IMG/VR virus record: IMGVR_UViG_3300045988_168338
Source of the DNA: a virus
Length of the DNA: 41,186 bases
Direction: 5' to 3' (one strand)
Made by a program: the position numbers and the translations under genes. Positions 2,166 to 7,535 of this stretch are shown here, piece after piece. The stretch's first letter is position 1; the number at the start of each line of letters is the position of its first letter. Under the pieces are notes generated by a model. The model had not been told where the DNA came from, ran no database searches, and worked only from the letters and a program-made list of their open reading frames with translations.

Positions 2166-2381
2166 ATGGCACTCAGGAGAATCGACGCGGAAACGCCGCT
2201 GATGCCACCCGCACCGCCGAGGGACACGGTGATCATGTTCGGCTTGACCGGCTACGCGATTCGCGTCACGGGCAAGGGCGCCAGCCTCATGGAGCTCGAC
2301 GTCGACGGAAGCCACGAGCTGGCGAGCATCGGAAAAGACCAGGCAAGGACATTCATTCAAAGCATAGGAGGCGCAAGATGA
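2166..2381 (+). CDS. Hypothetical protein
   Basis: AAGGAG 6 nt upstream of ATG 2166. The stop overlaps the next start (ATGA). Confidence 0.55.
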   Translation: MALRRIDAETPLMPPAPPRDTVIMFGLTGYAIRVTGKGASLMELDVDGSHELASIGKDQARTFIQSIGGAR

Positions 2382-2617
2382 CCGACAACGACTATCGCAT
2401 CGAGGACGGGTCCGAAAAGGGGAGGCCGAACTACACGCTGCGTCGTGTGAAGTTCGCGGCCGCCGTGGTCGGCCTGGTCGTGAGCGTGACGCTCATGCTC
2501 ACCTGGCATGGCGGCGGTCTGACGGGCGCGCTTGTGGTGGAGGGCGTGTATCTGGCCACGGCCCTGTGGCTGACGGTCAGGTTCGCTCCGCGCGATGACG
2601 TGGATGGCGACGTCTGA
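2378..2617 (+). CDS. Small membrane protein (2 TM)
   Basis: SD TAGGAGG upstream. Hydrophobic stretches FAAAVVGLVVSVTLMLTW and GALVVEGVYLATALWLTV. Confidence 0.6.
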   Translation: MTDNDYRIEDGSEKGRPNYTLRRVKFAAAVVGLVVSVTLMLTWHGGGLTGALVVEGVYLATALWLTVRFAPRDDVDGDV

Positions 2618-2625
2618 CCGTATCC

Positions 2626-2739
2626 GCCGGCGTACAAGGACGCGGACGGATGGCGGAGGCGTGTGTCCTTTCATCTCACATTGCATTTCACTCTCACGTC
2701 TTCCGCCGTCCGCTGCGGGTTCGAATCCCGCCGCCGGCG
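2626..2739 (+). ncRNA. tRNA-like structured element (acceptor stem plus canonical T-arm, no D or anticodon arm)
   Basis: GCCGGCG (2626-2632) pairs perfectly with CGCCGGC (2732-2738). T-arm is GCGGG-TTCGAAT-CCCGC (2715-2731). U8/A9-like TA at 2633-2634. A long bulged helix joins 2642-2663 to 2695-2713. No encoded CCA. Confidence 0.4.
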
Positions 2740-2845
2740 CTTGGCCGGACCGTCAACGCCGCCCGCATCCCCGTTTCGTTCAGCTTTCCTGGGGTGTGGG
2801 AACGATGGGCGCGATTACTTGCTGTCATGGCGCCCAGCGGTCCGG

Positions 2846-2875
2846 CTCATATCAATCAATCTCATATCAATCAAG
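2846..2875. repeat. Tandem 15-bp AT-rich repeat upstream of the SSB operon
   Basis: CTCATATCAATCAAT followed by CTCATATCAATCAAG, just 5' of the SD GGGAGGAG (2881-2888). Confidence 0.85.
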
Positions 2876-2891
2876 GTCAAGGGAGGAGCCG

Positions 2892-3236
2892 ATGAAGGAG
2901 ATTCTGCCGCATTGGCATTTCAGTCCGAACTCTCCGGTCAAGGACGTCGACGAGAAGAGGGTGACGCGTGGCGACCGGGCCGTCGCAGAGGCGTGCCGTC
3001 GTGCGATGGAGAGCGAGACGTGGAAGGAGCTGGTGATCCTCGAATCGTTGGGCGTGCGCTTCACCGAACTGGTGGGCCGGTTCGTGTCCGAGGTCGCGTC
3101 TCCCGTGTTGGAGGCGATGCCTGGCGACGCTTTCCATCAGGGAGTGGCCGCGCAGTTGACGCACATGGTGAAGACCAGGGATGGTGGCGAGACCATCCGC
3201 ATCATCAAGACTCTCGCCGTGAAAGGTAGGTTCTGA
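2892..3236 (+). CDS. Hypothetical protein
   Basis: SD GGGAGGAG then ATG 2892. The stop TGA overlaps the ssb ATG at 3236 (TGATG). Confidence 0.7.
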   Translation: MKEILPHWHFSPNSPVKDVDEKRVTRGDRAVAEACRRAMESETWKELVILESLGVRFTELVGRFVSEVASPVLEAMPGDAFHQGVAAQLTHMVKTRDGGETIRIIKTLAVKGRF

Positions 3237-7257: not shown

Positions 7258-7535
7258 TGACAACGAAGGGAAAAACCACGAAGACCGTATCCAAGGAGAC
7301 ACGGCCGCGCAAATGGCGCAAACCAGTGCCATGCCCGACCTGCGGCAGCCGAAACATCAGATTCGACCCGTTTGCCCGGGCCGTCAACCGGAAAACATCC
7401 GCCATACGACAGTTCTGGGTATGCTCCTGCGAACGCCACGGCATCCTCATCCTCACCCGCCACGACGACCTCAAGGAAGCCATCCGCGCATGGAACAAGG
7501 AAGCCACCAGACAAGGAAGGAAACACTCGAAATGA
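7257..7535 (+). CDS. Lar-family (restriction alleviation-like) zinc-ribbon protein
   Basis: CPTCGS...CSC zinc ribbon and a C-terminal EAIRAWNK motif characteristic of the Lar family. Confidence 0.55.
   Translation: MTTKGKTTKTVSKETRPRKWRKPVPCPTCGSRNIRFDPFARAVNRKTSAIRQFWVCSCERHGILILTRHDDLKEAIRAWNKEATRQGRKHSK

What the first reader, a model, noticed from the sequence alone, without database searches (positions are those of the whole stretch)
2626..2739. tRNA-like RNA element: perfect acceptor stem and canonical T-arm, with D and anticodon arms replaced by one long bulged helix
GCCGGCG (2626-32) pairs perfectly with CGCCGGC (2732-38). GCGGG-TTCGAAT-CCCGC (2715-31) is a textbook T-arm carrying the GGTTCGAATCC signature. 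TA follows the 5' acceptor strand, as U8/A9 would. The 82 nt in between form no cloverleaf. Instead GCGGACGG..CGGAGGCGTG (2642-2663) pairs with CACG.CTTCCGCCGTCCGC (2695-2713) around a 31-nt loop that contains a TTTCA(T)CTCAC direct repeat. A competing AAGGAC/GTCCTT pairing (2636-41/2665-70) is also possible. This topology of acceptor, T-arm and a single long helix recalls the tRNA-like domain of tmRNA and other tRNA mimics. It sits in a 274-bp non-coding gap of the early operon and no CCA is encoded. Possible roles include a decoy for tRNA-targeting host defences, a substrate for CCA-adding or aminoacylation enzymes, or a processing signal.
Basis: partly seen in the sequence, partly recalled or inferred. 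Interest (0 to 1): 0.65.

Follow-up and report, generated by a model that had tools for sequence, protein, structure and literature searches.

The report
tRNA-like RNA module in Bifidobacterium phage
A conserved RNA in the early operon of a Bifidobacterium prophage keeps the acceptor stem and T-arm of a tRNA but has one long hairpin in place of the other two arms; it is half of an optional, unannotated 274-bp RNA cassette that most likely works as a cutting signal for tRNA-processing enzymes.

Summary
The window is a Bbif-1-like Bifidobacterium prophage. Positions 2626-2739 fold into a 7-bp acceptor stem, a 9-nt linker, a long bulged helix with a G-poor, pyrimidine-rich loop, and a canonical T-arm. 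ARAGORN and Rfam call nothing there.

More than 60 sequence variants in five types keep this architecture. About 99% of pair cells are paired, 7-10 pairs show compensatory changes, and the G.U wobbles fit only the + strand. The acceptor and linker are more conserved than the flanking genes.

- A second covarying three-way-junction domain follows at 2743-2847.
- The whole 274-bp gap is an optional cassette. Of 80 close relatives, 11 lack both halves and none has only one.

It is not a tRNA, a tmRNA (no G3:U70, no tag ORF), an attP remnant or coding sequence.

Best reading (inferred, about 0.45): a t-element/mascRNA-like module. RNase P and a 3' tRNA endonuclease would cut it out of the early transcript, releasing a stable tRNA-like RNA and a replication-gene mRNA whose new 5' end is capped by the second domain. 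A decoy role or another trans-acting role is not excluded.

Novelty: new variant of a known kind. Function is untested.

The parts
2378..2617 (+). Upstream early gene (79 aa, hypothetical; no Pfam or PHROG hit). Its stop codon lies 8 nt before the element.
   Evidence: ORF list. Corresponds to Bbif-1 BBP_0962. No family hit.
2626..2632 (+). 5' strand of the acceptor stem (GCCGGCG).
   Evidence: Invariant in 63 distinct sequences.
2633..2641 (+). 9-nt single-stranded linker UACAAGGAC, an analogue of U8/A9 plus the D-loop. The family consensus is U-R-C-A-W-G-G-N-C, and the GG is invariant.
   Evidence: Unpaired in every fold. Type D has UGCAUGGUC.
2642..2713 (+). Long bulged helix (about 20 bp; 2642-2663 with 2695-2713) capped by a 31-nt loop (2664-2694). 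The loop is G-poor (6% G) and pyrimidine-rich (77% C+U).
   Evidence: Six pairs of this helix show compensatory changes. Only 65.5% identical to type B, yet still a helix. Loop composition.
2715..2731 (+). T-arm: 5-bp stem GCGGG/CCCGC and 7-nt loop UUCGAAU.
   Evidence: Stem pair 2 is C-G in 36, U-G in 20 and G-C in 7 sequences.
2732..2739 (+). 3' strand of the acceptor stem (CGCCGGC) plus discriminator G2739 (U in type D). No CCA is encoded.
2743..2847 (+). Second structured domain, a three-way junction. P1 is 2743-2753 with 2837-2847. P2 is 2762-2771 with 2791-2800. P3 is 2806-2812 with 2830-2836. P1 starts 3 nt after the predicted 3' cleavage site of the tRNA-like element.
   Evidence: RNAalifold. 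Single-sequence fold z = -3.95. 99-100% paired, with one compensatory pair in each helix and many G.U wobbles. Always present or absent together with the tRNA-like element.
2847..2874 (+). C/A-rich unstructured leader with two direct copies of TCATATCAATCAA (2847-2859 and 2862-2874). Copy number varies among relatives.
2879..2894 (+). Strong Shine-Dalgarno sequence AAGGGAGGAG and the ATG (2892) of the downstream gene.
   Evidence: The start matches Bbif-1 BBP_0961.
2892..3236 (+). Downstream gene (114 aa), the first gene of the replication module (followed by SSB, a ParB-like protein and a replication initiator). Five-helix bundle of unknown function.
   Evidence: AF2 pLDDT 83.9. No PDB fold match.

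Best explanation
The element is the 5' half of an optional 274-bp RNA cassette, transcribed as part of the early polycistronic mRNA of a Bbif-1-like Bifidobacterium prophage.

Shown:
- It is a selected, + strand RNA structure with a tRNA acceptor/T-arm core.
- An invariant GG in a 9-nt linker is well placed to dock on the T-loop, as G18/G19 do in a tRNA.
- A long helix needs only to stay a helix; its sequence is free to change.
- It is always coupled to a second, three-way-junction domain.

Inferred mechanism:
1. The acceptor/T-arm stack and its elbow make the element a substrate for host RNase P, cutting before G2626.
2. A tRNA 3'-endonuclease of the RNase Z type then cuts after the discriminator 2739, as it does for other CCA-less pre-tRNAs.
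3. These cuts separate the upstream switch-proximal genes from the replication module. The model is plant mitochondrial t-elements and MALAT1/mascRNA.
4. The upstream mRNA is left with an unprotected 3' end, 8 nt past its stop codon.
5. The downstream mRNA begins 3 nt before the 11-bp P1 stem of domain 2. That would shield its new 5' end. It then runs into a C/A-rich leader and a strong Shine-Dalgarno sequence.
6. A stable 114-137-nt tRNA-like RNA is released as a by-product or as a product in its own right.
For: - Sense strand, 8 nt after the upstream stop codon, with no promoter-like or terminator-like site in the gap.
- All five sequence types fold on their own into the same acceptor / 9-nt linker / long helix / 1-nt / T-arm architecture.
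- Covariation: 28 pairs, 98.6% paired, 7 compensatory pairs against 2.1 in shuffles and 0-3 in slid controls. For the whole gap: 51 pairs, 99.0% paired, 10 compensatory pairs against 1.5.
- The U.G wobbles (T-stem pair 2 in 20 of 63; P3 pair in 27 of 54) would be A.C mismatches on the other strand.
- Against the type-B relative, acceptor plus linker is 100% identical and the T-arm 88.5%. The flanking CDSs are 77-79% identical and the long helix 65.5%.
- The two halves are always present or absent together. Of 80 protein-retrieved relatives, 67 have both halves, 2 are cut by a contig end and 11 have neither.
- P1 of domain 2 starts 3 nt after the discriminator.
- Precedents: t-elements carrying the GGTTCRANYCC motif are cut by RNase P and RNase Z to make mRNA ends (PMC1920247). 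mascRNA, the phage P1/P7 C4 RNA precursor, tmRNA and polycistronic mRNAs are all non-tRNA RNase P substrates (PMC4919922).
Against: - There is no transcript or cleavage data of any kind.
- The cassette is dispensable. In 11 of 80 relatives the two genes sit 13 nt apart, so processing cannot be essential.
- Presence/absence polymorphism in an early region is also what one expects of an accessory, for example anti-defence, gene.
- RNase P does not need a fixed acceptor sequence, yet the acceptor is invariant. The long helix is kept although a minimal t-element would not need it.
- Domain 2 is more elaborate (invariant junction nucleotides) than a simple 5' stabiliser requires.
- The compensatory changes come from only three minority lineages (types B, C and D), so there are few independent events.
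Confidence: 0.45

Rival explanations
1. The released tRNA-like RNA is the real product. It would act in trans as a decoy or sponge for a host factor that recognises the acceptor/T-arm end of tRNAs. Candidates are tRNA-targeting defence toxins that modify or cut the acceptor end, the CCA-adding enzyme and T-loop modification enzymes. Alternatively it is a natural 'tRNA scaffold' that displays the pyrimidine-rich, anti-Shine-Dalgarno-like loop.
For: - It is an optional cassette in the early region, the typical place and pattern for accessory or counter-defence functions.
- The acceptor stem is invariant while the T-stem and long helix drift, which suggests sequence-specific recognition.
- The long helix and its G-poor (6-18% G), 71-78% pyrimidine loop are kept in all types.
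- A second, different tRNA-like RNA (TLS-2) with the same T-arm and a CU-rich enlarged loop occurs in 12 of 17 relatives.
- Phage tRNAs are known to counter tRNA-cleaving defences (PMC11555353).
Against: - Known phage tRNA counter-defence works by replacing tRNAs cut in the anticodon loop, and this element has no anticodon loop.
- No partner toxin or target has been identified.
- The loop sequence is the least conserved part.
- Pairing of the loop with the downstream translation start region is unremarkable: -16.8 kcal/mol against a genome-wide -10.9 +/- 3.9.
- This reading does not explain why domain 2 always accompanies the element.
Confidence: 0.25
2. The whole gap (tRNA-like element plus domain 2) is one cis-acting leader that regulates the downstream replication genes without being cut. 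It could be a processive-antitermination, attenuation or protein-binding riboregulator.
For: - The two halves are strictly coupled and lie directly upstream of the 114-aa/SSB/ParB/initiator genes.
- Domain 2 has invariant junction nucleotides and an alternative pairing (ACGCC with GGCGU) that competes with P3 in some variants.
- The gap holds no promoter-like or terminator-like site.
Against: - A perfect T-loop and acceptor stem are not needed for a generic leader and are hard to explain without tRNA-recognising factors.
- No terminator that could be regulated was found.
- There is no match to any Rfam cis-regulatory family.
Confidence: 0.15
3. It is an aminoacylatable tRNA or tmRNA-like molecule that takes part in translation, ribosome rescue or another aminoacyl-tRNA-dependent reaction after CCA addition.
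For: - The topology matches the tRNA-like domain of tmRNA: acceptor, stem-less D-loop analogue with GG, long helix, T-arm.
- The long helix adjoins the T-arm through one nucleotide, as a class II variable arm does.
- The only tRNA-clan Rfam match listed (sub-threshold, E = 1) is tRNA-Sec, at 16.7 bits.
Against: - C3-G70 stands where the alanine determinant G3:U70 would be.
- The loop has no stop codon in any frame and no pseudoknots. ARAGORN and the Rfam tmRNA and tRNA models do not detect it.
- The discriminator varies (G or U), which is unusual for a fixed amino-acid identity.
- There is no anticodon.
Confidence: 0.05
4. It is a decaying relic with no function of its own: a pseudo-tRNA, or a captured host tRNA fragment carried along with neighbouring sequence. 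A DNA-level site (att or ori) is a related possibility.
For: - Cellular tRNAs (Thr, Leu, Met) with the same acceptor stem, and in 5 of 120 cases the identical T-arm plus acceptor 24-mer, exist in other bacteria. A tRNA origin is therefore plausible.
- The cassette is dispensable.
- A few copies look damaged (L419, L429, L263).
Against: - The core is more conserved than the adjacent coding sequence.
- Compensatory and wobble changes preserve all helices in five diverged types.
- The wobbles fit only the + strand.
- The integrase of Bbif-1 lies about 9 kb away.
- Indels of 1, 2 and 8 nt rule out coding.
Confidence: 0.07

Closest known systems
Plant mitochondrial t-elements, and the mammalian MALAT1/mascRNA and MEN-beta tRNA-like modules
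   Same: All are non-canonical tRNA-like folds that keep the acceptor stem and a T-arm with the GGTTCRANYCC signature. They are embedded in a longer transcript on the sense strand next to coding or functional RNA. There, RNase P and RNase Z cut at the two ends, create the ends of the neighbouring RNAs and release a small tRNA-like RNA (PMC1920247, PMC4919922).
   Different: This one is in a DNA phage of an actinobacterium. It lacks both the D-arm and an anticodon arm, having a 9-nt linker and a helix of about 20 bp instead. It is coupled to a conserved three-way-junction domain downstream. Its cleavage has not been shown.
tRNA-like domain of tmRNA (SsrA), including the reduced jakobid mitochondrial form
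   Same: The order of parts is the same: 7-bp acceptor, a stem-less D-loop analogue containing GG, a long irregular helix in place of the anticodon arm, a short connector, and a 5-bp T-arm with a 7-nt T-loop. The comparison with tmRNA anatomy rests on my own knowledge.
   Different: - No G3:U70 (it has C3-G70).
- Discriminator G or U, not A.
- No resume codon, tag ORF or stop codon, and no pseudoknots.
- 114-137 nt long.
- Not detected by ARAGORN or the Rfam tmRNA models.
Precursor of the C4 antisense RNA of phages P1/P7 (an RNase P substrate within the immI operon)
   Same: Both are phage-encoded small RNAs embedded in a polycistronic early or immunity transcript. The C4 RNA is released by RNase P through a tRNA-like acceptor mimic (cited in PMC4919922). 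An antirepressor gene lies upstream here too.
   Different: C4 acts by antisense pairing to sites in its own operon. Here the loop is the least conserved part and shows no outstanding complementarity to the downstream start region or elsewhere in the window.
Canonical phage-encoded tRNAs, including those that counter tRNA-cleaving defences
   Same: Acceptor stem, U8/A9, T-arm and discriminator are as in a tRNA, and no CCA is encoded.
   Different: There is no D-arm, no anticodon arm and no anticodon. ARAGORN finds no tRNA, and the Rfam tRNA model is not the listed clan match even at E <= 10. It cannot decode.
Bacterial Y RNA-like RNAs (YrlA) with a tRNA-like module
   Same: Both are non-coding RNAs that mimic the tRNA elbow (T-arm and D-loop contacts). 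YrlA-type RNAs have been reported in some phages (PMC4201824, abstract and title only).
   Different: In YrlA the 5' and 3' ends form the Ro60-binding stem and the tRNA-like part is internal. Here the ends form the acceptor stem. None of the eight flanking genes that were scanned gave any Ro60-type match.

Membership tests
Canonical tRNA (Rfam RF00005) | 7-bp acceptor stem with an unpaired discriminator | tested here: met
   2626-2632 pairs with 2732-2738; G2739 is the discriminator.
Canonical tRNA (Rfam RF00005) | T-arm with a 5-bp stem, a 7-nt loop and the GGTTCGAATCC signature | tested here: met
   2715-2731. The stem covaries.
Canonical tRNA (Rfam RF00005) | D-arm (3-4 bp stem plus loop) | tested here: not met
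   A 9-nt unpaired linker stands in its place in all five types.
Canonical tRNA (Rfam RF00005) | Anticodon arm with a 5-bp stem and a 7-nt loop | tested here: not met
   A helix of about 20 bp with a 25-46-nt loop.
Canonical tRNA (Rfam RF00005) | Detected by ARAGORN or by the Rfam model at its gathering score | tested here: not met
   ARAGORN finds 0 genes. Rfam gathering search gives 0 matches. At E <= 10 the only listed tRNA-clan match is tRNA-Sec at 16.7 bits against a gathering score of 47.
tmRNA | tRNA-like domain: acceptor, stem-less D-loop analogue, T-arm, and a long helix leaving the core | tested here: met
   The fold topology matches. This is a resemblance only.
tmRNA | G3:U70 alanine identity pair (and A73) | tested here: not met
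   C2628-G2736 is a C3-G70 pair. The discriminator is G, or U in type D.
tmRNA | mRNA-like domain with a resume codon, a tag ORF and a stop codon, plus pseudoknots | tested here: not met
   The 31-nt loop has no TAA, TAG or TGA in any frame (read). No pseudoknot domain is present. ARAGORN's tmRNA search is negative and the Rfam tmRNA models are negative.
t-element / mascRNA-type processing module | Non-canonical tRNA-like fold that keeps the acceptor stem and a GGTTCRANYCC T-arm | tested here: met
   The motif definition is taken from PMC1920247.
t-element / mascRNA-type processing module | Embedded in a longer sense transcript, abutting functional RNA on both sides | tested here: inconclusive
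   The position fits: 8 nt after a stop codon, on the same strand, with no promoter-like or terminator-like site. Transcription itself was not observed.
t-element / mascRNA-type processing module | Cleavage by RNase P at the 5' end and by RNase Z at the 3' end; transcript ends coincide with the element's ends | not testable with these tools
   Needs end-mapping or in vitro cleavage.
attP core / captured 3' fragment of a host tRNA gene | Only the 3' part of a tRNA, identical to the host tRNA, next to the integrase | tested here: not met
   A complete, covarying acceptor stem is present. The Bbif-1 integrase lies about 9 kb away at the other end of the early region.
Protein-coding sequence (ORF 2595-3236 is open through the element) | Indels in multiples of three and a codon-like substitution pattern | tested here: not met
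   Variants differ by 1-, 2- and 8-nt indels. Cassette-less relatives use the same ATG.

The most novel reading that the evidence does not exclude
The phage uses a tRNA chassis as a natural 'tRNA scaffold'. Host tRNA-processing enzymes would excise and stabilise a small RNA whose business end is either the acceptor/T-arm core or the long helix with its pyrimidine-rich, anti-Shine-Dalgarno-like loop.

In the first case the RNA would be a decoy for host factors or defence toxins that act on tRNA acceptor ends. In the second it would titrate purine-rich sites or a pyrimidine-tract-binding factor.

Together with the second tRNA-like RNA (TLS-2) found in relatives, this would define a family of phage-encoded tRNA-mimic RNAs that work as RNA-based accessory or anti-defence factors.
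Probability: 0.2. Interest if true: 0.85.

Novelty: new variant of a known kind. Interest (0 to 1): 0.55.

Why it matters
tRNA-like modules that recruit RNase P and RNase Z to punctuate transcripts are established in organelles and mammalian nuclei. Nothing equivalent turned up for DNA phages in the searches made here. This element is invisible to ARAGORN and the Rfam models used here, and it is unannotated in the GenBank Bbif-1 record.

It is abundant among prophages of Bifidobacterium, a key infant-gut genus. It also comes with natural controls: close relatives that lack the cassette cleanly. That makes the question of what a tRNA mimic does for a temperate phage directly testable.

If the released RNA acts in trans, it would add an RNA-only class to phage accessory and counter-defence factors. 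If it only punctuates the operon, it would show that bacterial viruses use the organelle-style 'tRNA punctuation' strategy.

The coupled three-way-junction domain and TLS-2 are further uncatalogued RNA structures.

Tried and rejected
- **Competing AAGGAC/GTCCTT helix:** 87.9% paired, no compensatory change, and one pair broken in 25 of 54 sequences. Rejected.
- **Antisense (C4-like) action of the loop on its own downstream start region:** duplex energy is -16.8 kcal/mol against a window-wide -10.9 +/- 3.9. The best hits elsewhere are GC-rich coding stretches. No support.
- **Downstream 114-aa protein as an L30e/SpoU_sub_bind-type RNA binder:** the Pfam hit (E = 0.009) is below the cut-off. The AF2 model (pLDDT 83.9) is an all-helical bundle, which I judge (own knowledge of the fold) inconsistent with the alpha/beta L30e/SpoU_sub_bind domain, and it has no PDB match (E >= 1.4). 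Rejected.
- **Coding reading of ORF 2595-3236:** rejected by non-triplet indels.
- **tRNA, tmRNA, tRNA-Sec and any Rfam family:** negative.
- **Own promoter or terminator in the gap:** none found.
- **Host tRNA origin:** It only showed that Thr, Leu and Met tRNAs of other phyla share the acceptor. Undecided.
- **Wider family:**
  - One viral scan was wasted on a wrong gap length.
  - The linker plus T-loop pattern gave mostly chance hits, plus one unrelated tRNA-like locus, L300.
  - A metagenome scan that excluded type A gave 3 true hits out of 122.
  - The only GenBank phage with the element is Bbif-1.
- **Literature:** no paper was found that mentions this element.
Full report
**1. The observation**

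- GCCGGCG (2626-2632) and its perfect complement CGCCGGC (2732-2738).
- TA at 2633-2634.
- The T-arm GCGGG-TTCGAAT-CCCGC (2715-2731).
- G2739 in the discriminator position, with no encoded CCA.
- A non-coding gap of 274 nt (2618-2891).

RNAfold returns the described topology. The MFE is -54.9 kcal/mol, z = -3.9, and none of 200 dinucleotide shuffles folds as well. ARAGORN finds no tRNA or tmRNA in the whole window. No Rfam family reaches its gathering score. A permissive scan of 2550-2900 gives only noise, and the one listed tRNA-clan match is tRNA-Sec at 16.7 bits against a gathering score of 47.

**2. Context**

The first 8 kb of the window are 97.5% identical to Bifidobacterium phage Bbif-1 (GQ141189, host B. 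bifidum). The gap lies between two unnamed genes of the rightward early operon:
- Upstream is a 79-aa protein (2378-2617).
- Downstream is a 114-aa protein (2892-3236).
- After that come SSB, a ParB-like protein and a replication initiator.

An antirepressor gene and an Xis/HTH-like gene lie upstream. The Bbif-1 integrase is about 9 kb away. Nothing is annotated in the gap of the GenBank record. No sigma-70-like promoter or intrinsic terminator was found in or next to the gap. The element starts 8 nt after the upstream stop codon, on the sense strand.

**3. Relatives and an unbiased census**

- Exact-pattern scans of IMG/VR found the element in well over 100 Bifidobacterium-phage contigs, in 61 distinct sequence variants.
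- Contigs reached through distant homologues of the 114-aa protein (64-65% identity) still carry it.
- I also retrieved 80 loci through the protein alone (at least 86% identity). This retrieval is blind to the RNA.
  - 67 carry the complete gap.
  - 2 are cut off by a contig end inside it.
  - 11 lack the whole gap. In those the upstream stop codon is followed by GGGGAGTGACCG and the ATG of the 114-aa gene.
  - No locus has only one half.

The 274-bp gap is therefore a discrete, dispensable cassette.

**4. Structure and covariation of the tRNA-like element**

Five sequence types exist:

| Type | Length | Example loci |
|---|---|---|
| A-short | 114 nt | the window |
| A-long | 130 nt | L031, L059 |
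| B | 129-130 nt | L053-L056, L432, L546 |
| C | 136-137 nt | L245, L328, L516, L545 |
| D | 110 nt | L412, L419 |

The common A-long form has 8 extra nt in the loop and 8 extra nt in the 3' strand of the helix.

Each type, folded alone, gives the same architecture (z from -2.3 to -5.2):
- a 7-bp acceptor stem,
- a 9-nt unpaired linker,
- a long bulged helix with a large loop,
- one connecting nucleotide,
- a 5-bp T-stem with the loop UUCGAAU,
- the 3' acceptor strand and the discriminator.

On a covariance-model alignment of 63 distinct sequences, 98.6% of pair cells are standard pairs. Seven of 28 pairs show changes on both sides. Column shuffles give 2.1 and slid controls give 0-3. T-stem pair 2 is C-G in 36 sequences, U-G in 20 and G-C in 7.

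The frequent G.U pairs would be A.C mismatches on the complementary strand, so selection acts on the + strand RNA.

Between the window and type B, identity varies by segment:

| Segment | Identity |
|---|---|
| Acceptor plus linker | 100% |
| T-arm (differences compensated) | 88.5% |
| Long helix | 65.5% |
| Flanking CDSs | 77-79% |

The linker consensus across types is U-R-C-A-W-G-G-N-C. Its GG is invariant, which is what one expects if it docks on the T-loop as G18/G19 do in a tRNA; that step is inference. The discriminator is G in types A-C and U in type D.

The loop is the least conserved part, but it is always G-poor (6-18% G) and 71-78% pyrimidine.

One caveat applies. The compensatory changes come from three minority lineages, so the number of independent events is small.

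**5. The second half of the cassette**

RNAalifold on 54 complete gaps predicts a three-way junction directly after the element:
- P1: 2743-2753 with 2837-2847.
- P2: 2762-2771 with 2791-2800.
- P3: 2806-2812 with 2830-2836.

Its helices are 99-100% paired. Each has one compensatory pair, and there are many wobbles; one P3 pair is C-G in 27 sequences and U-G in 27. The window sequence alone folds this way with z = -3.95. The junction strands CAACGCCG and AACGA, and the loop segment GUCAUG, are nearly invariant. In types B and D an alternative ACGCC/GGCGU pairing competes with P3.

After the junction come a C/A-rich unstructured leader with a variable number of TCATATCAATCAA repeats (2847-2874) and a strong Shine-Dalgarno sequence. 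No Rfam family matches any of this.

**6. What it is not**

- **Not a tRNA.** It has no D-arm, no anticodon arm and no anticodon.
- **Not a tmRNA.** C3-G70 replaces G3:U70. The loop has no stop codon in any frame. There are no pseudoknots, and the detectors are negative.
- **Not coding.** ORF 2595-3236 is open through the element, but variants differ by 1-, 2- and 8-nt indels, and cassette-less relatives use the same ATG.
- **Not an attP core.** It has a complete, covarying acceptor stem and lies far from the integrase.
- **The competing AAGGAC/GTCCTT helix is not conserved**.
- **The loop shows no special complementarity** to the downstream start region or anywhere else in the window.
- **The downstream protein gives no hint of RNA binding.** It is a five-helix bundle with no structural match.

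A tRNA ancestry is plausible. Thr, Leu and Met tRNAs of other bacteria share the acceptor stem, and 5 of 120 share the identical 24-mer of T-arm plus acceptor. Identity to a Bifidobacterium tRNA could not be tested.

**7. Most likely mechanism (inferred)**

The coaxial acceptor/T-arm stack with an intact elbow is the part of a tRNA that RNase P, RNase Z and the CCA-adding enzyme recognise. That is established knowledge. Non-tRNA examples are plant mitochondrial t-elements, mascRNA and the P1/P7 C4 precursor (PMC1920247, PMC4919922).

I propose that host enzymes cut the element out of the early transcript:
- The upstream mRNA would end 8 nt past its stop codon with no protecting structure.
- The downstream replication-module mRNA would start 3 nt before the 11-bp P1 stem. 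That would shield the new 5' end. It would then be translated from a C/A-rich leader and a strong Shine-Dalgarno sequence.

This model accounts for the sense-strand intercistronic position, the absence of promoter and terminator, and the strict coupling of the two halves. It also accounts for the contrast with cassette-less relatives, whose two genes lie 13 nt apart.

It does not account for three things: the invariant acceptor sequence, the maintained long helix with its pyrimidine-rich loop, and the elaborate junction of domain 2. Those features, together with the accessory presence/absence pattern, keep a trans-acting role alive. That role could be a decoy or sponge for a tRNA-end-recognising factor, or a scaffold that displays the loop.

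**8. A related element in relatives**

The covariance model also detects a second tRNA-like RNA (TLS-2, 100-103 nt, 25-31 bits). It lies 5-7.6 kb downstream on the same strand in 12 of 17 relatives that have enough sequence. It has:
- the acceptor GCCUUCG/CGAAGGC,
- a D-arm-like AGUGGUA hairpin,
- a stem of about 10 bp with a 17-19-nt CU-rich loop,
- the same T-arm as the window element.

Neither ARAGORN nor Rfam calls it in the loci checked first. When ARAGORN was run over 204 family loci, it labelled a TLS-2 variant in two of them as tRNA-Ile(tat) with shifted ends, which looks spurious. The window lacks TLS-2. In L002 it sits after a terminator-like hairpin, so it may be transcribed on its own. 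tRNA mimicry therefore appears to be a recurrent device in this phage group.

**9. Novelty and limits**

No paper or database entry describing the element was found. It is best filed as a new variant of a known kind: a tRNA-like processing or mimic element. It is not a member of the tRNA or tmRNA families.

All functional statements are inference; there are no transcript data. As far as the capped scans could tell, the family is confined to one Bifidobacterium prophage lineage.

Noticed in passing
window 2743-2847: A second conserved, covarying RNA domain lies directly after the tRNA-like element. It is a three-way junction (P1 2743-2753/2837-2847, P2 2762-2771/2791-2800, P3 2806-2812/2830-2836) with nearly invariant junction strands. 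In some variants an alternative pairing competes with P3. No Rfam match.
   Followed up: partly
L363, L369, L370, L372, L379, L380, L384, L387, L389, L393, L399 (about 1490-1503 in each): Close relatives (114-aa protein 86-88% identical) lack the whole 274-bp gap. The upstream stop codon and the ATG are 13 nt apart (TGAGGGGAGTGACCGATG). The cassette is therefore an optional insertion or deletion unit.
   Followed up: yes
L002 7477-7579 (+), L239 12448-12550 (+), L033 9931-10030 (+), L034 6103-6202 (-), and others: A second, different tRNA-like RNA (TLS-2) lies 5-7.6 kb downstream in 12 of 17 relatives. It has the acceptor GCCTTCG/CGAAGGC, a D-arm-like hairpin, a stem of about 10 bp with a 17-19-nt CU-rich loop, and the identical T-arm GCGGGTTCGAATCCCGC. 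ARAGORN and Rfam do not call it in the loci checked, apart from a spurious-looking tRNA-Ile(tat) call on a variant in two loci. It is absent from the window. In L002 it follows a terminator-like hairpin (7271-7307).
   Followed up: partly
window 2847-2874: Two direct copies of TCATATCAATCAA lie just upstream of the Shine-Dalgarno sequence. Their number and spacing vary among relatives (4-nt and 15-nt indels). Other lineages have different C/A-rich leaders at the same place.
   Followed up: partly
window 2595-3236: An ORF of 213 codons stays open through the whole structured gap, in frame with the 114-aa gene. Non-triplet indels among relatives show that it is not coding.
   Followed up: yes
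L300 11616-11742 (-) (IMGVR_UViG_3300017658_000002): An unrelated phage contig carries GCGGTTG-TACAAGG...GTGGGTTCGAATCCTGC-CAGCCGC-G-CCA. This is a 7-bp acceptor with the same UACAAGG linker start, an anticodon-arm-like hairpin, a T-arm and an encoded CCA, about 127 nt long. ARAGORN does not call it. The R1 model scores it at 30.6 bits.
   Followed up: partly
L050 904-982 (-) (IMGVR_UViG_3300033463_000423): The exact 25-mer of T-arm plus 3' acceptor, followed by CCA, lies about 350 nt downstream of a tRNA-Thr in an unrelated viral contig. No matching 5' acceptor strand is nearby. It could be an intron-containing or split tRNA-like gene.
   Followed up: no
L002 7417-7471 (+): A hairpin just upstream of TLS-2 gives a weak, sub-threshold Rfam match to abiF RNA (17.3 bits against a gathering score of 37; E = 1.6). 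It is probably chance.
   Followed up: no
window 2892-3236: The 114-aa protein family is confined to Bifidobacterium phages. It has an invariant LPHW..SPN N-terminal motif and a nearly invariant C-terminus HMVKTRDGGETIRIIKTLAVKGRF. The model is a confident five-helix bundle with a disordered N-terminus and no PDB fold match.
   Followed up: partly
L034 834-915 (-) and other family loci: Some relatives also carry canonical tRNA genes: Tyr-GUA, Ser-GCU and Pro-UGG. The tRNA-Tyr T-arm (GCGGGTGCGAATCCCGC) is one base away from the T-arm of the tRNA-like elements.
   Followed up: no
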